From Naegleria gruberi (Eukaryota), in the NCBI GenBank assembly GCA_000004985.1, contig GG739100.1: 7,875 nucleotides of DNA. The stretch is one strand, 5' to 3'. This document shows, piece after piece, positions 38 to 7,875 of the stretch. The notes below the pieces were generated by a model that saw nothing but the letters and a program-made list of their open reading frames with translations, did no database searches and was not told where the DNA came from. The position numbers were made by a program, and so were the translations under genes. Every line of letters starts with the position of its first letter. The first letter of the stretch is position 1.

Positions 38-64
38 CAACAACAACAACAACAAACAACAAAA
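38..64. repeat. (CAA)6 microsatellite followed by a CAA/A-rich tail (acaacaaaa)
   Basis: A perfect (CAA)6 read directly from the sequence at 38-55, then acaacaaaa. Confidence 0.9.
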
Positions 65-487: not shown

Positions 488-1603
488 TTATTTTCTTGGG
501 AATGCAAACATGTATTGAGGAGGAACAGCGACTGGGTAATCCAAATCTTGAGCAGCTCTAATTGGCCAGTAAGGATCATTCAAATCTTGTCTTCCAATTA
601 ATACTAAATCTGCCTTTCCATCCTTCACTAAATCATTAGCAAATTTAGCTTCCACTATTTTACCAACTGCACCAGTGGCCAATCCATCAACTGATTTCTT
701 GACGCCCTCAGAGAATGGAACTTGATAACCTTGCACAATTCCAATTGGTGAAATTTTGGCTTTGGCATTATTACCACCAGATGAACAGTCCAACAAGTCA
801 ACTCCAGAATCACGTAAAATCTTTGCTAGCTCTGTAGTGTCTTTCATGGTCCAGCCCTCTTCACCAACGTATTCATCAGCTGAAACTCTGACAAATAATG
901 GCATTTCAGTTGGAATATTCTCTCTAATTCTTTGAACAATTTCAATCAAGAATCTAATACGATTTTCGAATGATCCACCATAAGCATCAGTTCTTTGATT
1001 TGAAGTTGGTGAAAGGAATGAGGAAATTAAATATCCGTGAGCTCCATGAATTTCAATAACATCAAATCCTGCCTTAACAGCTCTCTTAGCAGCATCCACA
1101 AATTGTTGAATCACTTCTTGAATTTGTTCAATGGACAATTCTGCAGGAACTTTGTGATTATCATCAAATGCAATTGGAGATGGACCAATAACGTCCCATC
1201 CTCCTTCTTCGTTTGTCAATGCTTTTCTTCCTAGAGCTTCCCACAATCTTCCAGTTGATGCCTTTCTACCAGCATGACCTATTTGTATTCCGATATGTCC
1301 ACCCTGTTCGTGTGTAAATTGACAAATTTTAGACAACATGTCAACATGTTCATCTTTGTAAATTCCTAAACATCCTGGTGAAATTCTACCAATATCCGAA
1401 ACACCAGTGGCTTCTACAATAAATAAACCAGCTCCACCTACAATTCTACTGCCAATATGTTGAACATGCCAGAAATTAGCAAATCCATCAACCGATGAGT
1501 ACTGACACATTGGGGAGACGACAATACGATTCTTTAAAGTCAATCCTCTAATTTTGAATGGTTGAAAGAGTGGAGGAACGGATGAGATATCTTGTGCTGA
1601 CAT
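488..1603 (-). CDS. Old Yellow Enzyme family NADPH dehydrogenase / NADH:flavin oxidoreductase, YqjM/NamA-like (class II 'thermophilic-like' OYE), intron-less, 371 aa
   Basis: Complete ORF. The ATG is the complement of 1601-1603, preceded on the coding strand by aaaaaaaATGTCA, a strong yeast Kozak context. The TAA is the complement of 488-490. The translation carries the OYE hallmarks: SPMCQYSS (the Cys/Tyr pair typical of YqjM-type enzymes, where class I OYEs have Thr), GIQIGHAGRKA, GFDVIEIHGAHGYLISSFLSPTSNQRTDAYGGSFENRIRFL, PLFVRVSADEY, GVDLLDCSSGG, GYQVPF, ADLVLIGR, and a C-terminal QY…PRK Arg-finger-like tail. From memory it is block-by-block collinear with Bacillus subtilis YqjM. Codon usage is host-like, with no CTG codons. 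Confidence 0.9.
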   Translation of the reverse strand: MSAQDISSVPPLFQPFKIRGLTLKNRIVVSPMCQYSSVDGFANFWHVQHIGSRIVGGAGLFIVEATGVSDIGRISPGCLGIYKDEHVDMLSKICQFTHEQGGHIGIQIGHAGRKASTGRLWEALGRKALTNEEGGWDVIGPSPIAFDDNHKVPAELSIEQIQEVIQQFVDAAKRAVKAGFDVIEIHGAHGYLISSFLSPTSNQRTDAYGGSFENRIRFLIEIVQRIRENIPTEMPLFVRVSADEYVGEEGWTMKDTTELAKILRDSGVDLLDCSSGGNNAKAKISPIGIVQGYQVPFSEGVKKSVDGLATGAVGKIVEAKFANDLVKDGKADLVLIGRQDLNDPYWPIRAAQDLDYPVAVPPQYMFAFPRK

Positions 1604-1617
1604 TTTTTTAATGGTTG
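1603..1617. repeat. target-site duplication, left copy (tttttttaatggttg); overlaps the OYE start codon by 1 nt
   Basis: An exact 15/15 match to 7170-7184. Similarity stops immediately outside the repeat (gctgaca vs taaaaga, only 2 of 7 positions match). Confidence 0.65.
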
Positions 1618-4600
1618 NNNNNNNNNNNNNNNNNNNNNNNNNNNNNNNNNNNNNNNNNNNNNNNNNNNNNNNNNNNNNNNNNNNNNNNNNNNNNNNNNNN
1701 NNNNNNNNNNNNNNNNNNNNNNNNNNNNNNNNNNNNNNNNNNNNNNNNNNNNNNNNNNNNNNNNNNNNNNNNNNNNNNNNNNNNNNNNNNNNNNNNNNNN
1801 NNNNNNNNNNNNNNNNNNNNNNNNNNNNNNNNNNNNNNNNNNNNNNNNNNNNNNNNNNNNNNNNNNNNNNNNNNNNNNNNNNNNNNNNNNNNNNNNNNNN
1901 NNNNNNNNNNNNNNNNNNNNNNNNNNNNNNNNNNNNNNNNNNNNNNNNNNNNNNNNNNNNNNNNNNNNNNNNNNNNNNNNNNNNNNNNNNNNNNNNNNNN
2001 NNNNNNNNNNNNNNNNNNNNNNNNNNNNNNNNNNNNNNNNNNNNNNNNNNNNNNNNNNNNNNNNNNNNNNNNNNNNNNNNNNNNNNNNNNNNNNNNNNNN
2101 NNNNNNNNNNNNNNNNNNNNNNNNNNNNNNNNNNNNNNNNNNNNNNNNNNNNNNNNNNNNNNNNNNNNNNNNNNNNNNNNNNNNNNNNNNNNNNNNNNNN
2201 NNNNNNNNNNNNNNNNNNNNNNNNNNNNNNNNNNNNNNNNNNNNNNNNNNNNNNNNNNNNNNNNNNNNNNNNNNNNNNNNNNNNNNNNNNNNNNNNNNNN
2301 NNNNNNNNNNNNNNNNNNNNNNNNNNNNNNNNNNNNNNNNNNNNNNNNNNNNNNNNNNNNNNNNNNNNNNNNNNNNNNNNNNNNNNNNNNNNNNNNNNNN
2401 NNNNNNNNNNNNNNNNNNNNNNNNNNNNNNNNNNNNNNNNNNNNNNNNNNNNNNNNNNNNNNNNNNNNNNNNNNNNNNNNNNNNNNNNNNNNNNNNNNNN
2501 NNNNNNNNNNNNNNNNNNNNNNNNNNNNNNNNNNNNNNNNNNNNNNNNNNNNNNNNNNNNNNNNNNNNNNNNNNNNNNNNNNNNNNNNNNNNNNNNNNNN
2601 NNNNNNNNNNNNNNNNNNNNNNNNNNNNNNNNNNNNNNNNNNNNNNNNNNNNNNNNNNNNNNNNNNNNNNNNNNNNNNNNNNNNNNNNNNNNNNNNNNNN
2701 NNNNNNNNNNNNNNNNNNNNNNNNNNNNNNNNNNNNNNNNNNNNNNNNNNNNNNNNNNNNNNNNNNNNNNNNNNNNNNNNNNNNNNNNNNNNNNNNNNNN
2801 NNNNNNNNNNNNNNNNNNNNNNNNNNNNNNNNNNNNNNNNNNNNNNNNNNNNNNNNNNNNNNNNNNNNNNNNNNNNNNNNNNNNNNNNNNNNNNNNNNNN
2901 NNNNNNNNNNNNNNNNNNNNNNNNNNNNNNNNNNNNNNNNNNNNNNNNNNNNNNNNNNNNNNNNNNNNNNNNNNNNNNNNNNNNNNNNNNNNNNNNNNNN
3001 NNNNNNNNNNNNNNNNNNNNNNNNNNNNNNNNNNNNNNNNNNNNNNNNNNNNNNNNNNNNNNNNNNNNNNNNNNNNNNNNNNNNNNNNNNNNNNNNNNNN
3101 NNNNNNNNNNNNNNNNNNNNNNNNNNNNNNNNNNNNNNNNNNNNNNNNNNNNNNNNNNNNNNNNNNNNNNNNNNNNNNNNNNNNNNNNNNNNNNNNNNNN
3201 NNNNNNNNNNNNNNNNNNNNNNNNNNNNNNNNNNNNNNNNNNNNNNNNNNNNNNNNNNNNNNNNNNNNNNNNNNNNNNNNNNNNNNNNNNNNNNNNNNNN
3301 NNNNNNNNNNNNNNNNNNNNNNNNNNNNNNNNNNNNNNNNNNNNNNNNNNNNNNNNNNNNNNNNNNNNNNNNNNNNNNNNNNNNNNNNNNNNNNNNNNNN
3401 NNNNNNNNNNNNNNNNNNNNNNNNNNNNNNNNNNNNNNNNNNNNNNNNNNNNNNNNNNNNNNNNNNNNNNNNNNNNNNNNNNNNNNNNNNNNNNNNNNNN
3501 NNNNNNNNNNNNNNNNNNNNNNNNNNNNNNNNNNNNNNNNNNNNNNNNNNNNNNNNNNNNNNNNNNNNNNNNNNNNNNNNNNNNNNNNNNNNNNNNNNNN
3601 NNNNNNNNNNNNNNNNNNNNNNNNNNNNNNNNNNNNNNNNNNNNNNNNNNNNNNNNNNNNNNNNNNNNNNNNNNNNNNNNNNNNNNNNNNNNNNNNNNNN
3701 NNNNNNNNNNNNNNNNNNNNNNNNNNNNNNNNNNNNNNNNNNNNNNNNNNNNNNNNNNNNNNNNNNNNNNNNNNNNNNNNNNNNNNNNNNNNNNNNNNNN
3801 NNNNNNNNNNNNNNNNNNNNNNNNNNNNNNNNNNNNNNNNNNNNNNNNNNNNNNNNNNNNNNNNNNNNNNNNNNNNNNNNNNNNNNNNNNNNNNNNNNNN
3901 NNNNNNNNNNNNNNNNNNNNNNNNNNNNNNNNNNNNNNNNNNNNNNNNNNNNNNNNNNNNNNNNNNNNNNNNNNNNNNNNNNNNNNNNNNNNNNNNNNNN
4001 NNNNNNNNNNNNNNNNNNNNNNNNNNNNNNNNNNNNNNNNNNNNNNNNNNNNNNNNNNNNNNNNNNNNNNNNNNNNNNNNNNNNNNNNNNNNNNNNNNNN
4101 NNNNNNNNNNNNNNNNNNNNNNNNNNNNNNNNNNNNNNNNNNNNNNNNNNNNNNNNNNNNNNNNNNNNNNNNNNNNNNNNNNNNNNNNNNNNNNNNNNNN
4201 NNNNNNNNNNNNNNNNNNNNNNNNNNNNNNNNNNNNNNNNNNNNNNNNNNNNNNNNNNNNNNNNNNNNNNNNNNNNNNNNNNNNNNNNNNNNNNNNNNNN
4301 NNNNNNNNNNNNNNNNNNNNNNNNNNNNNNNNNNNNNNNNNNNNNNNNNNNNNNNNNNNNNNNNNNNNNNNNNNNNNNNNNNNNNNNNNNNNNNNNNNNN
4401 NNNNNNNNNNNNNNNNNNNNNNNNNNNNNNNNNNNNNNNNNNNNNNNNNNNNNNNNNNNNNNNNNNNNNNNNNNNNNNNNNNNNNNNNNNNNNNNNNNNN
4501 NNNNNNNNNNNNNNNNNNNNNNNNNNNNNNNNNNNNNNNNNNNNNNNNNNNNNNNNNNNNNNNNNNNNNNNNNNNNNNNNNNNNNNNNNNNNNNNNNNNN

Positions 4601-6454
4601 NNNNNNNNNNNNNNNNNNNNNNNNNNNNNNNNNNNNNNNNNNNNNNNNNNNNNNNNNNNNNNNNNNNNNNNNNNNNNNNNNNNNNNNNNNNNNNNNNNNN
4701 NNNNNNNNNNNNNNNNNNNNNNNNNNNNNNNNNNNNNNNNNNNNNNNNNNNNNNNNNNNNNNNNNNNNNNNNNNNNNNNNNNNNNNNNNNNNNNNNNNNN
4801 NNNNNNNNNNNNNNNNNNNNNNNNNNNNNNNNNNNNNNNNNNNNNNNNNNNNNNNNNNNNNNNNNNNNNNNNNNNNNNNNNNNNNNNNNNNNNNNNNNNN
4901 NNNNNNNNNNNNNNNNNNNNNNNNNNNNNNNNNNNNNNNNNNNNNNNNNNNNNNNNNNNNNNNNNNNNNNNNNNNNNNNNNNNNNNNNNNNNNNNNNNNN
5001 NNNNNNNNNNNNNNNNNNNNNNNNNNNNNNNNNNNNNNNNNNNNNNNNNNNNNNNNNNNNNNNNNNNNNNNNNNNNNNNNNNNNNNNNNNNNNNNNNNNN
5101 NNNNNNNNNNNNNNNNNNNNNNNNNNNNNNNNNNNNNNNNNNNNNNNNNNNNNNNNNNNNNNNNNNNNNNNNNNNNNNNNNNNNNNNNNNNNNNNNNNNN
5201 NNNNNNNNNNNNNNNNNNNNNNNNNNNNNNNNNNNNNNNNNNNNNNNNNNNNNNNNNNNNNNNNNNNNNNNNNNNNNNNNNNNNNNNNNNNNNNNNNNNN
5301 NNNNNNNNNNNNNNNNNNNNNNNNNNNNNNNNNNNNNNNNNNNNNNNNNNNNNNNNNNNNNNNNNNNNNNNNNNNNNNNNNNNNNNNNNNNNNNNNNNNN
5401 NNNNNNNNNNNNNNNNNNNNNNNNNNNNNNNNNNNNNNNNNNNNNNNNNNNNNNNNNNNNNNNNNNNNNNNNNNNNNNNNNNNNNNNNNNNNNNNNNNNN
5501 NNNNNNNNNNNNNNNNNNNNNNNNNNNNNNNNNNNNNNNNNNNNNNNNNNNNNNNNNNNNNNNNNNNNNNNNNNNNNNNNNNNNNNNNNNNNNNNNNNNN
5601 NNNNNNNNNNNNNNNNNNNNNNNNNNNNNNNNNNNNNNNNNNNNNNNNNNNNNNNNNNNNNNNNNNNNNNNNNNNNNNNNNNNNNNNNNNNNNNNNNNNN
5701 NNNNNNNNNNNNNNNNNNNNNNNNNNNNNNNNNNNNNNNNNNNNNNNNNNNNNNNNNNNNNNNNNNNNNNNNNNNNNNNNNNNNNNNNNNNNNNNNNNNN
5801 NNNNNNNNNNNNNNNNNNNNNNNNNNNNNNNNNNNNNNNNNNNNNNNNNNNNNNNNNNNNNNNNNNNNNNNNNNNNNNNNNNNNNNNNNNNNNNNNNNNN
5901 NNNNNNNNNNNNNNNNNNNNNNNNNNNNNNNNNNNNNNNNNNNNNNNNNNNNNNNNNNNNNNNNNNNNNNNNNNNNNNNNNNNNNNNNNNNNNNNNNNNN
6001 NNNNNNNNNNNNNNNNNNNNNNNNNNNNNNNNNNNNNNNNNNNNNNNNNNNNNNNNNNNNNNNNNNNNNNNNNNNNNNNNNNNNNNNNNNNNNNNNNNNN
6101 NNNNNNNNNNNNNNNNNNNNNNNNNNNNNNNNNNNNNNNNNNNNNNNNNNNNNNNNNNNNNNNNNNNNNNNNNNNNNNNNNNNNNNNNNNNNNNNNNNNN
6201 NNNNNNNNNNNNNNNNNNNNNNNNNNNNNNNNNNNNNNNNNNNNNNNNNNNNNNNNNNNNNNNNNNNNNNNNNNNNNNNNNNNNNNNNNNNNNNNNNNNN
6301 NNNNNNNNNNNNNNNNNNNNNNNNNNNNNNNNNNNNNNNNNNNNNNNNNNNNNNNNNNNNNNNNNNNNNNNNNNNNNNNNNNNNNNNNNNNNNNNNNNNN
6401 NNNNNNNNNNNNNNNNNNNNNNNNNNNNNNNNNNNNNNNNNNNNNNNNNNNNNN
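1618..6454. other. assembly gap / masked block (4,837 N)
   Basis: An uninterrupted run of n. The non-round length suggests a scaffold gap of estimated size. Every X-filled ORF in the track (1540..6474-, 1608..6458-, 1611..6467+, and the N part of 1615..7116+) is an artifact of translating N. Confidence 1.
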
Positions 6455-6456
6455 TC

Positions 6457-7116
6457 AAGAAAGTTGAAGCTCATAAGGATAAGGAAAATATCAAAGTTGA
6501 TTTATTGGCAAAGAATGCAACTCTGAAACCTAAAATCTTTGATATCCGTAAACTACTCTTTAATCAATATATCCTCACAAAGAACGATATTATAATCTTT
6601 GACTATAAGAGGTTAACTACCTCACAACATTTAAGGATAATGCTTGACAAGATAGAGAGTCACCCCAATCACATACCTAACCTAGATTGGAACTCTATCA
6701 ACGTCAGCTACCTTAAATCCCATTTGTCTCCTAAATCTAAATATTATATTTGGAGAAACTCTTCAAATGCCCACATCAATTTTGGTGAGGGTAAAAGTTT
6801 CTGTCATGATTGTAACACAGAATCTGACCTTAATCACTATATTCATGAATGCCCTGCTCTGGATAGTGCCAGATACTTTTGCTTGTCAAAAATATCTGAT
6901 ATTCTTGATCAGAGAGAGTGTAAACTCACTCATATTCAATTCAGACCAGAAAAGCATCACCATGTACTCTTCTTCCACCATTCTGGAACCACATTCTTCG
7001 AAGATGGATACGTACAACAATACCCAGACATTGCAGAGAAATGGCCTGAGATTCAGGGAGCCATTTCTAACTTTGTCGGCCGCTCCTATAGATATTATTA
7101 TATTGACTCAATGTAA
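6457..7116 (+). CDS. 3' fragment (219 codons + stop) of LINE ORF2: end of RNase H domain followed by a CCHC zinc knuckle and a ~90-aa C-terminal tail; 5' part lies in the gap
   Basis: The frame is open from the first non-N base to TAA at 7114-7116. KKVEAHKDKENIKVDLLAKNA matches the RNase H C-terminal signature (H…N-x-x-[AV]-D-x-LAK-x-A). CHDCNTESDLNHYIHEC is C-X2-C-X7-H-X4-C, the zinc knuckle found at the C-terminal end of ORF2 in many non-LTR retrotransposon clades. It is not the HHCC finger of an integrase. The fragment contains two CTG codons (6523-6525, 6859-6861). Confidence 0.75.
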   Translation, partial: KKVEAHKDKENIKVDLLAKNATLKPKIFDIRKLLFNQYILTKNDIIIFDYKRLTTSQHLRIMLDKIESHPNHIPNLDWNSINVSYLKSHLSPKSKYYIWRNSSNAHINFGEGKSFCHDCNTESDLNHYIHECPALDSARYFCLSKISDILDQRECKLTHIQFRPEKHHHVLFFHHSGTTFFEDGYVQQYPDIAEKWPEIQGAISNFVGRSYRYYYIDSM

Positions 7117-7169
7117 ATTTACAAATTCAAAGAGAATCTGAATAGATTCGTTATTATTGCAATAAAAGA
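7117..7169 (+). other. LINE 3' UTR (53 bp) containing AATAAA (7161-7166); no appreciable poly(A) or simple-repeat tail before the TSD
   Basis: This is the sequence between the ORF2 stop codon and the right TSD copy. Confidence 0.5.
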
Positions 7170-7184
7170 TTTTTTTAATGGTTG
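7170..7184. repeat. target-site duplication, right copy (tttttttaatggttg)
   Basis: An exact 15/15 match to 1603-1617. It lies directly after the LINE 3' UTR, which ends …gcaataaaaga. Confidence 0.65.
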
Positions 7185-7440
7185 TTGAGTGAATTGAGTG
7201 CGACAGAGATTATTGTTGAAAACTATTTATTTCATAGAGAGAGTTGATGAAAATGCGTCCTTTCTTGTTGTGAAGTTCCAAACTATTAGCAGAGGAAGCA
7301 TAAATCATCTGGTGAGGTTGCACAATTATTATCTTACGACTTTGTGCGTTTCAACAAAGTTTCCGAGACTTTCCGACTAGGTTGAAGATAACAAACTTCC
7401 GATACTAAATTATTTCAACTTTATACAAACAATAGCAATT
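7185..7440 (-). promoter_or_regulatory. displaced native 5' flank/promoter of the OYE gene: TATAAAG (minus strand, 7425..7419), tandem TTTCCGA at 7360-7366 and 7370-7376 (10-bp phase), tandem TTGAGTG/CACTCAA at 7185-7191 and 7194-7200
   Basis: If the element and one TSD copy are removed, 7185 onward becomes contiguous with the OYE ATG. The TATA box would then sit about 250 bp upstream of the ATG, and the CACTCAA repeats would lie in the 5' leader. This is inference from the TSD geometry and there are no expression data. Confidence 0.3.
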
Positions 7441-7649
7441 TTACTCAATCATCATGTTGAATATCATGCAAAGATCACACCCCAATCAAAACCTCTTTAT
7501 TCCCTCATCAATTCCATCACCAAAACATTCAATCTTAATACATATTGCAACAAATATTAAATAAATTGAAAAAAATGAAAAACCACAAACACCCATTTAT
7601 TTTTTGTTGGTAAAATTTGCAGAGCATGAAGGATTTGTTAGTAGATAGA

Positions 7650-7817
7650 CATGTGTTCAGACCACAATCCCGAAATCTCTAACATACCGTAATGGGCAAG
7701 TTTCTGGCTTCTGGTGTGGTCTGATATAGTAAGCCGTCTTCAGATTAACGTGATGCTGTCAAGATTTGCATTGCAGGGTCCGTTCTGGTTTCGTTACATC
7801 CAACCTTTTGTTTTTTT
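7650..7817 (+). ncRNA. candidate small structured RNA / Pol III-like unit of unknown identity: 9-bp perfect inverted repeat (cagaccaca 7658-7666 / tgtggtctg 7724-7732) in a GC-richer island ending in T4GT7 (7806-7817)
   Basis: GC content rises locally compared with the AT-rich flanks. There is a long perfect stem. The T-tract looks like a Pol III terminator or an Sm site. I found no tRNA A/B boxes and no convincing match to U1, U2, U4, U5, U6, U3 or 5S from memory. This is speculative. Confidence 0.15.
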
Positions 7818-7875
7818 GGATTTAAAATAATTAAAGATGGATTTTAATTATTATTTAATTATTTAAATAAAAATG

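What the first reader, a model, noticed from the sequence alone, without database searches (positions are those of the whole stretch)
1601..7184. LINE retrotransposon inserted head-to-head 14 bp upstream of the OYE start codon, bracketed by a 15-bp target-site duplication
The 15-mer tttttttaatggttg occurs at 1603-1617, where it abuts the gap and overlaps the T of the minus-strand ATG. It occurs again at 7170-7184, 53 bp after the stop codon of an RNase H/CCHC-encoding ORF. This is the classic TSD-element-TSD layout of a target-primed reverse-transcription insertion, and a 15-bp TSD is LINE-like where LTR elements give 4-6 bp. The element's 5' end, where LINE promoters and often antisense promoters lie, would sit directly against the OYE ATG. 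The native TATA and upstream motifs are pushed about 5.5 kb away. Expression of this xenobiotic and oxidative-stress-type enzyme is therefore probably rewired or abolished on this allele. In a diploid yeast this could be a heterozygous, recent insertion.
Basis: partly seen in the sequence, partly recalled or inferred. Interest (0 to 1): 0.7.

Follow-up and report, generated by a model that had tools for sequence, protein, structure and literature searches.

The report
Naegleria LINE inserted at OYE start codon
A young LINE retrotransposon of the amoeba Naegleria gruberi (not a yeast) has very probably landed exactly against the start codon of an Old Yellow Enzyme gene, and two distant relatives in N. 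fowleri sit in the same register at other genes' start codons, which hints that this LINE lineage prefers the A-rich leader plus ATG of genes.

Summary
TTTTTTTAATGGTTG is exact at 1603-1617 and 7170-7184, and extends to 16 bp with the A at 1602/7169. About 7e-6 chance matches are expected. The left copy is the last 16 bases before a 4837-N scaffold gap. The right copy starts at the end of a LINE 3' UTR.

The window is a whole 7875-bp Naegleria gruberi scaffold. The 219-aa ORF tail is the end of an ORF2 whose relatives carry AP-endonuclease, reverse transcriptase, RNase H and a CCHC knuckle. Near-identical copies lie on other N. gruberi scaffolds, so the family is young.

Relatives measure 5.2-5.6 kb, which fits the 5552 bp predicted here. 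The 5' junction itself is unsequenced.

Two N. fowleri full-length relatives show the same layout. They sit head-to-head with a host gene, and their TSDs (16 bp and 9 bp) begin at the AT of that gene's ATG and run into a T-tract. All five 3' ends examined end in A followed by T6-T9. I infer a first-strand nick at A(n)T|G on the gene-sense strand.

The yeast assumption is wrong. Effects on OYE expression and heterozygosity remain untested. This is an ordinary kind of event from an uncharacterised lineage with a notable target preference.

The parts
488..1603 (-). Old Yellow Enzyme gene (YqjM/TsOYE-type NADH:flavin oxidoreductase), 371 aa. It is identical to an NCBI 'predicted protein [Naegleria gruberi]'. 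The start codon is CAT at 1601-1603 on the + strand.
   Evidence: ORF list. Pfam Oxidored_FMN at 2.2e-79. 100% identity to P0002 on a contig of 7875 bp. PDB relatives align from residue 10-12. An in-frame stop lies upstream in the reconstructed empty site.
1602..1617 (+). Left copy of the target-site duplication, ATTTTTTTAATGGTTG. It is 15 bp for certain; the first A is ambiguous with the element's terminal A. It includes the A and T of the OYE ATG and ends exactly at the contig end.
1618..6454 (.). Scaffold gap of 4837 N. It is presumed to hold the LINE 5' end, ORF1 and most of ORF2 (APE, RT, most of RNase H). Not sequenced.
   Evidence: The predicted element 1618-7169 is 5552 bp. Relatives measure 5226 bp (L015), about 5604 bp (L008) and at least 5271 bp (L007).
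6457..7116 (+). 3' end of LINE ORF2, 219 aa plus the TAA stop. It comprises the last ~21 residues of RNase H (6457-6519) and a conserved C-terminal domain with the CX2CX7HX4C knuckle (6802-6852). GenBank annotates 6640-7116 as a 158-aa 'predicted protein' (P0146).
   Evidence: It differs by 1 aa from P0122 and P0147 of N. gruberi. Relatives P0124, P0128 and P0138 carry Exo_endo_phos_2, RVT_1 and RNase_H.
7117..7169 (+). LINE 3' UTR of 53 nt with no poly(A) tail. It contains a conserved motif GAGAATCTGAATAGATTCG (7132-7150) that forms a 6-bp hairpin GAATCT/AGATTC (7134-7149), an AATAAA at 7161-7166, and a terminal ...AAAAGA.
   Evidence: The motif is shared with L007 (42% aa identity), and L006 (45%) has a variant. 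The hairpin is predicted in all three.
7169..7184 (+). Right copy of the target-site duplication, ATTTTTTTAATGGTTG.
7185..7875 (.). Sequence that would have been the native upstream (promoter) region of the OYE gene before insertion. It is now displaced to the far side of the element.
   Evidence: Inferred from the TSD layout. No homology to the upstream regions of OYE orthologues was detectable, so this is not independently confirmed.

Best explanation
A young, probably full-length LINE has inserted by target-primed reverse transcription into the A-rich leader of a Naegleria gruberi OYE gene. The element is an APE-type non-LTR retrotransposon with ORF1 and an ORF2 of AP-endonuclease, RT, RNase H and a CCHC knuckle. 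It is antisense to the gene.

Reconstructed empty site, in gene sense: ...CACTCAA|CAACCATTAAAAAAAT|GTCAGC. The endonuclease nicked the gene-sense strand at the end of the A-tract, at A7T|G (or A7|TG). The 3'-OH primed cDNA synthesis from the element RNA. The other strand was cut 15-16 bp upstream. Repair then duplicated 15-16 bp.

What is shown:
- the exact repeat;
- its position at the contig end and at the element's 3' end;
- the LINE identity of the tail;
- the existence of near-identical copies.

What is inferred:
- the gap holds the rest of the element;
- the lineage prefers A(6-9)TG sites, which in Naegleria are often start codons.

What is speculative: read-through transcripts carry the U-tract of the previous site and anneal to the A-tract of the next target. 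This would be helped by an AATAAA placed 0-9 nt before the T-tract.
For: - The repeat is exact; about 7e-6 matches are expected by chance.
- The left copy is the last 16 bases of the left contig, as expected if an unassemblable repeat starts at 1618.
- The tail is 99.5% identical (218/219 aa) to N. gruberi P0122 and P0147. The cluster spans 5 scaffolds.
- Relatives have APE, RT, RNase H and this C-terminal domain. The RT matches R2 and L1 ORF2p structures.
- Relatives measure 5.2-5.6 kb, with ORF1 followed by ORF2.
- L015 has an exact 16-bp TSD, ATTTTTTAGGAGGATG, at 3380-3395 and 8622-8637. It overlaps the AT of a divergent gene's ATG.
- L008 has CAT plus a T-run, then the element, then A plus T8.
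- All five 3' ends finish in A followed by T6-T9.
- All three host ATGs have in-frame stops upstream.
- Away from the element junctions, only 4 of 56 A>=6 runs in the sampled Naegleria DNA abut an annotated start, but 4 of 9 A>=6TG motifs do.
Against: - The 5' junction is not sequenced. The gap size is an assembler estimate, so a 5'-truncated copy plus other sequence, or a scaffolding error, cannot be excluded.
- No empty-site allele or orthologous empty site could be found, because the flanks of OYE orthologues are too diverged.
- The target-preference claim rests on only three two-sided junctions and two 3' junctions.
- L008's TSD is only 9 bp and consists of a T-run.
- No N. gruberi DNA other than the window could be retrieved.
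- The hairpin alone is not thermodynamically significant (z -0.45 and -1.2).
Confidence: 0.72

Rival explanations
1. Assembly or haplotype artefact. The two contigs are allelic or mis-scaffolded versions of one locus, for example an empty allele ending at 1617 and a filled allele in the right contig. Alternatively the element is 5'-truncated and the gap holds something else. In either case 'full-length LINE 14 bp from the ATG' would not describe a real chromosome.
For: The window is a small unplaced scaffold with a 4837-N estimated gap. Other fragments of the same LINE also sit on 7-8 kb scaffolds, so this repeat broke the assembly. From my own knowledge, not tested here, N. gruberi NEG-M is reported to be heterozygous.
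Against: A contig ending exactly at the last base of the repeat is what a unique/repeat boundary predicts. An empty-allele contig would have no reason to stop there. The right contig carries the LINE 3' end joined to the same 16-mer and unique flank in continuous sequence. A positive gap of about 4.8 kb matches the family's 5.2-5.6 kb length. If the contigs were empty and filled versions of one locus, they would overlap rather than be separated by a gap. Even under heterozygosity the insertion itself is real.
Confidence: 0.15
2. The insertion is real, but there is no start-codon or A(n)TG specificity. The endonuclease simply likes T/A-rich tracts or open chromatin, and the three start-codon hits are a small-sample coincidence or an annotation effect.
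For: There are only 3 two-sided cases. A-tracts are common in these AT-rich genomes, with 60 runs of A>=6 in about 27 kb. Gene predictors could pick the ATG next to an insertion.
Against: Away from the element junctions, 4 of 56 A>=6 runs abut an annotated start, so three out of three has p of about 4e-4 under a plain A-tract preference. The nick register relative to the ATG is identical in all three. In-frame stops lie upstream of each ATG. The OYE start is confirmed by homology. I chose the two N. fowleri loci by their ORF2 protein, without seeing their flanks.
Confidence: 0.25
3. The 15/16-mer is a chance low-complexity repeat and not a TSD.
For: It is T-rich. Exact 16-mers can occur by chance inside A-rich Naegleria LINE sequence, for example L008 5638/7583.
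Against: Only 7e-6 matches are expected, and 8 of the 15 bases are non-homopolymer (AATGGTTG). Both copies sit exactly at independently defined boundaries: the contig end, and the element 3' end as defined by alignment with L007 and L006.
Confidence: 0.01

Closest known systems
   Same: Two ORFs, an APE endonuclease plus RT, a CCHC knuckle near the ORF2 C-terminus, target-primed reverse transcription, variable TSDs of roughly 7-20 bp, and a short homopolymer-based nick preference.
   Different: L1 nicks TTTT|AA, so its TSDs start with A's after a poly(A) tail. Here the TSD starts with T's and there is no poly(A) tail, which implies a nick at A(n)T|G. This ORF2 has an RNase H domain upstream of the CCHC. 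ORF1 gives no Transposase_22 hit. The organism is Naegleria, not a yeast. The best non-Naegleria protein hit is only 21% identical.
RNase H-bearing APE LINEs: I factor, Tad1, LOA, and ingi/L1Tc of trypanosomatids (also Discoba)
   Same: The domain order APE - RT - RNase H followed by a C-terminal zinc-binding motif. Ingi/L1Tc come from the sister lineage of Heterolobosea and also show a conserved insertion-site pattern and roughly 12-bp TSDs (my own knowledge, not tested here).
   Different: Clade membership could not be tested because no reference phylogeny was available. Ingi/L1Tc are single-ORF elements with a C2H2 finger and a poly(A) tail (my own knowledge). This family has a separate ORF1, a CCHC knuckle and no poly(A).
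Sequence-specific APE LINEs of the R1/TRAS/SART type
   Same: Insertion at a defined nucleotide of a short target. In R1Bm, read-through transcripts that carry downstream target sequence anneal to the nicked target and set the start of reverse transcription (my own knowledge). The speculated U-tract/A-tract annealing here would be analogous.
   Different: Those elements target multicopy repeats such as rDNA and telomeres. Here the apparent target is a 7-10-nt motif, A(n)TG, scattered at the starts of single-copy protein genes.
Dictyostelium TRE5/TRE3 elements, and Ty1/Ty3 as a functional analogy
   Same: Retrotransposons in compact genomes that integrate at fixed positions relative to host genes.
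   Different: Those elements are tethered by Pol III transcription factors next to tRNA genes and avoid coding genes. Here the element lands directly against the ATG of Pol II genes, and the position is explained by a sequence motif.

Membership tests
APE-type non-LTR retrotransposon (LINE) | Reverse transcriptase of the non-LTR type | tested here: inconclusive
   The RT region of this copy lies in the gap. Family members sharing the same C-terminal domain have RVT_1 (P0124 2.4e-24, P0128, P0129, P0138). P0124 matches R2 and human L1 ORF2p structures. So the feature is met for the family and unseen for this copy.
APE-type non-LTR retrotransposon (LINE) | N-terminal apurinic/apyrimidinic-like endonuclease in ORF2 | tested here: inconclusive
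   Exo_endo_phos_2 and Exo_endo_phos hits occur in P0124 and in N. gruberi P0123. P0147, of the same 90% cluster, aligns to the APE region of L007. The feature is not visible in the window because of the gap.
APE-type non-LTR retrotransposon (LINE) | No LTRs, and flanked by a variable-length TSD generated by staggered nicks | tested here: met
   A 15-16-bp exact repeat lies at the predicted ends in the window. L015 has a 16-bp TSD and L008 a 9-bp T-tract TSD. No terminal repeats were found within L015 or L008.
APE-type non-LTR retrotransposon (LINE) | ORF1 upstream of ORF2 on the same strand | tested here: met
   Met for the relatives: L007 has ORF1 at 19-1572 and ORF2 at 1593-5234, and L008 and L015 have ORF1 and ORF2 gene calls. 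N. gruberi P0147 aligns to L007 ORF1. This copy's ORF1 lies in the gap.
L1 clade | Poly(A) 3' tail and TSDs beginning with A's (TTTT|AA nick) | tested here: not met
   The 3' ends read ...AAAAGA...AATAAA...ACAAA...TTAGA and ...TTTCA, each followed by T6-T9.
L1 clade | L1-type ORF1 (Pfam Transposase_22) | tested here: not met
   No such hit for L007 ORF1 or for the ORF1 part of P0147, even at E<=10.
RNase H-containing LINE clades (I, Tad1, LOA, Ingi and others) | RNase H domain downstream of RT in ORF2 | tested here: met
   Pfam RNase_H is found in P0122 (9e-12), P0123, P0124, P0128, P0129 and P0138. The window retains its last ~21 residues.
RNase H-containing LINE clades (I, Tad1, LOA, Ingi and others) | Phylogenetic placement of the RT within a named clade | not testable with these tools
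   No reference set of clade RTs was available. The protein search returned only Naegleria-like relatives plus very weak hits at 21-33% identity.
Old Yellow Enzyme family, YqjM/'thermophilic-like' class | Full-length Oxidored_FMN TIM-barrel domain with closest similarity to YqjM/TsOYE/XenA | tested here: met
   Pfam at 2.2e-79 over residues 12-354. PDB hits include 3hf3 (chromate reductase) at 9e-111 and 1z41 (YqjM) at 2e-89.

The most novel reading that the evidence does not exclude
Naegleria harbours a previously undescribed LINE lineage whose integration machinery recognises the motif A(6-9)T|G and nicks within the start codon on the gene-sense strand. New copies are therefore placed routinely, antisense, directly against the ATG of protein-coding genes. 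Integration may be guided by annealing between a read-through U-tract on the element RNA and the A-rich translation-initiation leader of the target. The short 5' end of the element may supply promoter activity that keeps the host gene alive. This would be a LINE that targets the translation-start context of single-copy genes.
Probability: 0.4. Interest if true: 0.65.

Novelty: new member of a known kind. Interest (0 to 1): 0.45.

Why it matters
On its own this is one more TSD-flanked LINE insertion, from a family that databases list only as 'predicted protein'. Two things make it worth noting.

First, it documents a young and probably active LINE family in Naegleria gruberi. The papers I could search give only bulk repeat-masking statistics for Naegleria TEs, and they note that only a small fraction of N. 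gruberi repeats can be classified as known TEs.

Second, three divergent family members in two species share the same register at host start codons. If a genome-wide survey confirms this, it would add a new target specificity to the catalogue of LINE endonucleases.

It would also raise a concrete question: how does a compact genome tolerate 5-kb insertions between promoter and ATG? Candidate answers are an antisense promoter in the element, heterozygosity, or silencing by the 5mC/H3K9me3 marks reported on young N. gruberi TEs. For N. fowleri, such insertions could be strain-typing markers and a source of expression variation.

Tried and rejected
- **Exact-protein look-ups for N. gruberi DNA.** Queries with the OYE protein, P0146, P0122 and P0147 found nothing on record. 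I could therefore not read other copies of the same family or an empty allele.
- **Orthologous empty-site test.** I fetched OYE orthologue contigs at 85%, 75%, 69% and 68% protein identity (L001-L005). I compared them with a reconstructed empty site and with both flanks using blastn and tblastx. Only the CDS aligns. The intergenic flanks and the neighbouring genes (GH116, RIO1) have no counterpart in 7185-7875. A 13/15-nt resemblance between the L002 leader (CACTCAGCAACATTC ATG) and the empty-site junction is too short to count.
- **Collection scans.** The metagenome scan with the C-terminal domain profile gave no relatives. The metagenome scan with the conserved 19-nt 3' UTR motif gave 6 hits, all unrelated chance matches. 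The viral-contig scan gave nothing.
- **Window annotation.** Rfam and tRNA scans found nothing relevant. Pfam on the 219-aa tail alone gave no hit.
- **Clade assignment.** The homology search with P0124 returned only Naegleria-like relatives and very weak others.
- **Literature.** I found no description of Naegleria LINE structure, TSDs or target sites, only bulk repeat statistics.
- **Readings rejected.**
  - Yeast Zorro/L1 identity: the organism and the 3' end type are wrong.
  - LTR element: no LTRs, and a non-LTR RT.
  - T-run as part of the element rather than the target: it is duplicated at the 5' side in all three two-sided cases.


Full report
**What the window is.**
- The 7875 bases consist of two sequenced contigs, 1-1617 and 6455-7875, separated by 4837 N.
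- The minus-strand ORF 488..1603 encodes a 371-aa protein. It is 100% identical over its full length to an NCBI 'predicted protein [Naegleria gruberi]' whose contig is 7875 bp long.
- The window is therefore a complete small scaffold of the N. gruberi assembly, and the N-run is a scaffold gap of estimated size.
- The protein is an Old Yellow Enzyme of the YqjM/TsOYE type: Pfam Oxidored_FMN at 2e-79, and PDB 3hf3 at 9e-111 and 1z41 at 2e-89.
- Solved homologues align from residue 10-12, so the ATG at 1603-1601 is the genuine start.

**The observation.**
- TTTTTTTAATGGTTG occurs exactly at 1603-1617 and 7170-7184 and nowhere else, even with two mismatches allowed.
- The identity extends one base to a 16-mer at 1602-1617 and 7169-7184.
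- Base composition predicts 7e-6 chance matches in the right contig.
- The left copy is the very end of the left contig and overlaps the A and T of the OYE start codon.
- The right copy starts 53 bp after the TAA of the + strand ORF tail.

**Identity of the ORF tail.**
- The 219 codons at 6457-7113 have no Pfam hit of their own.
- An exhaustive profile-free search found 24 relatives.
- The best, P0122, differs at one residue. Together with P0147 (1179 aa), P0146 (the 158-aa gene model annotated in this window, also present on a second scaffold) and P0148, it forms a >=90% identity cluster of N. gruberi proteins spread over five scaffolds.
- More distant relatives come from N. gruberi (P0123, P0127), N. 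fowleri (clusters of 30 and 14 members) and unnamed environmental or SRA assemblies.
- Pfam shows Exo_endo_phos_2 + RVT_1 + RNase_H in P0124, and RVT_1 + RNase_H in P0128, P0129 and P0138. The query domain always lies at the extreme C-terminus.
- The P0124 RT matches R2 and human L1 ORF2p structures.
- Window residues 1-21 are the end of the RNase H domain. C116, C119, H127 and C132 (CX2CX7HX4C) are invariant in ten relatives.
- The tail is therefore the 3' end of ORF2 of an APE-type, RNase H-bearing LINE. The near-identity between copies shows the family is young.

**Size and anatomy of the family.**
- A Logan contig (L007, 5279 bp) carries ORF1 (19-1572), a 20-bp spacer, ORF2 (1593-5234) and a 37-nt 3' UTR.
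- In N. fowleri, L008 spans about 3014-8617 (about 5604 bp) and L015 spans 3396-8621 (5226 bp).
- N. gruberi P0147 aligns to L007 ORF1, to the C-terminal part of its APE region and to its RNase H/C-terminal region, but skips the RT. This looks like a gene-model artefact.
- The element predicted in the window (1618-7169) would be 5552 bp, inside the family's range. The gap estimate is thus consistent with a full-length copy, but that is only a consistency argument.

**The 3' end.**
- The window, L007 and L006 share only 42-45% amino-acid identity. They nevertheless share a 3' UTR motif, GAGAATCTGAATAGATTCG (L006: AGAATCTCAATAGGATTCG), that folds into a 6-bp hairpin.
- The hairpin is thermodynamically unremarkable on its own, so its conservation is the argument.
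- None of the five 3' ends has a poly(A) tail. Each has an AATAAA 0-9 nt before the end, terminates in A, and is followed directly by T6-T9.
- The five junctions read:
  - window: AAAAGA|T7
  - L007: AATAAA|T8
  - L006: ACAAA|T7
  - L008: TTAGA|T8
  - L015: TTTCA|AT6

**Independent two-sided junctions.**
- In L015 an exact 16-bp direct repeat, ATTTTTTAGGAGGATG, brackets the element at 3380-3395 and 8622-8637.
- Its first two bases are the A and T of the CAT (3379-3381) that is the start codon of a divergently oriented Img2-family gene.
- In L008 the start codon of a Nas2-family gene (CAT 3003-3005) runs into a T-run ending at 3013. The element's conserved 5' end (AATTTCG..., compare the L007 start ATTTCG...) begins at 3014. 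The 3' end is followed by A+T8, giving a 9-bp TSD.
- I chose both loci by their ORF2 protein, without knowledge of their flanks.
- All three reconstructed empty sites read, in host-gene sense, A(6-8)AT|G..., with an in-frame stop upstream of the ATG.
- So three divergent family members in two species lie head-to-head with a host gene, in the same nucleotide register relative to its start codon.

**Mechanism.**
- In target-primed reverse transcription, the first bases of the TSD on the element's sense strand are complementary to the 3' end of the priming strand (established knowledge of L1 and R2).
- A TSD beginning (A)TTTTTTT therefore means the gene-sense strand was nicked at 5'-A(n)T|G-3', or A(n)|TG. 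The single A is ambiguous with the element's terminal A.
- The second nick lies 15-16 bp upstream in the window and in L015, and 9 bp upstream in L008.
- I estimated the background from the roughly 27 kb of non-LINE Naegleria DNA in hand. Setting aside the four runs at the element junctions, 4 of 56 A>=6 runs abut an annotated start. Three of three has p of about 4e-4 under a plain A-tract preference.
- By contrast, 4 of 9 A>=6TG motifs abut a start.
- A sequence preference for A-tract+TG therefore suffices to explain why these elements end up at start codons. No recognition of genes as such needs to be invoked.
- Speculative step: the AATAAA lies just before the T-tract, so 3' processing probably occurs beyond it. 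Transcripts would then carry the U-tract of their own TSD, which could anneal to the A-tract of the next target and fix the initiation point.
- The doubled ATTTTTT-CA-ATTTTTT at the L015 3' junction looks like a short 3' transduction, which fits this idea.

**What remains unproven for the window.**
- The 5' junction is not sequenced.
- No other N. gruberi DNA could be retrieved.
- No empty site was found in orthologous loci because the intergenic DNA is too diverged.
- Metagenome and viral scans gave nothing useful.
- A 5'-truncated copy, a scaffolding error, or a heterozygous insertion whose empty allele confused the assembler all remain possible. None of these would remove the insertion event itself, because the right contig contains LINE 3' end, 16-mer and unique flank in continuous sequence.
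- The proposed effect on OYE expression is untested. The same layout at two N. fowleri genes annotated as intact shows that it recurs, but tolerance is not shown. If these genes are expressed, the promoter is now about 5 kb away, so either the element's 5' end drives the host gene or another allele does.

**Comparison with known systems, and novelty.**
- The element works like any APE LINE.
- It is not L1-like in its 3' end or TSD polarity, and its ORF1 has no Transposase_22 hit.
- Its domain order resembles the RNase H-bearing clades (I, Tad1, LOA, Ingi). Its clade could not be determined: the closest non-Naegleria protein is 21% identical.
- The papers I could search describe Naegleria TEs only as bulk repeat-masking statistics. 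I found no description of this family or of its target sites.
- I rate the finding itself as a new member of a known kind: an ordinary insertion event from an uncharacterised lineage.
- The apparent A(n)T|G / start-codon preference is the part that deserves follow-up.

Noticed in passing
L007:1-40 versus window 1584-1609 (minus strand): The ORF1 start of the Logan relative (AAAAAAAATGTCTGCACAAG, MSAQ...) is nearly identical to the OYE start in the window (AAAAAAATGTCAGCACAAG, MSAQ...), differing by one substitution and one extra A in the leader. The orientation relative to the LINE is opposite, and N. gruberi's own ORF1 (P0147) starts MKKIPQQ. Probably coincidence, but unexplained.
   Followed up: partly
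window 7655-7818: A GC-richer segment folds well (-42.7 kcal/mol, z -2.3) into two long hairpins and is followed by a T-rich run, like a small Pol III-type RNA gene. Rfam has no match.
   Followed up: partly
L015:8605-8640: The element's 3' end reads AATAAAT-ATTTTTT-CA|ATTTTTTAGGAGGATG. The T-tract motif is present twice, as if about 9 nt of a previous insertion site had been carried along (3' transduction).
   Followed up: no
window 1610-1617 / 7177-7184, and L015:3388-3395 / 8630-8637: In host-gene sense, both 16-bp TSDs begin with CA[A/T]CC (CAACC, CATCC). This hints at a sequence preference for the second-strand cut as well, but n=2.
   Followed up: no
window 488-1603: The OYE is more similar to bacterial NamA/YqjM-type enzymes (55-58% identity to Bacteroidota and Acidobacteria proteins) than would be expected for a eukaryotic gene. 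It also has homologues in N. lovaniensis and Willaertia and a 61% paralogue in N. gruberi. It may be an old bacterial-like acquisition in Heterolobosea.
   Followed up: no
P0147 and P0123 (N. gruberi gene models) against L007:2850-4028: Both annotated N. gruberi LINE proteins jump over the entire RT domain at the same place, and P0147 fuses ORF1 to ORF2. These are likely gene-prediction artefacts (gaps or false introns) in repeat copies.
   Followed up: partly
L001:180-280: The closest environmental OYE orthologue (85% nt identity) has no in-frame ATG where the window has one. Homology starts right after ...TTGAACAG, which looks like a 3' splice site, so that orthologue may have a 5' intron or be truncated.
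   Followed up: no
L015:3401-3409; L007:12-21: The LINE's own ORF1 start codons carry the same A-tract+ATG motif that appears to be the integration target, so nested self-insertions at element 5' ends might be expected.
   Followed up: no
window 38-60: A short (CAA)n/(AAC)n microsatellite lies about 430 bp downstream of the OYE stop codon.
   Followed up: no
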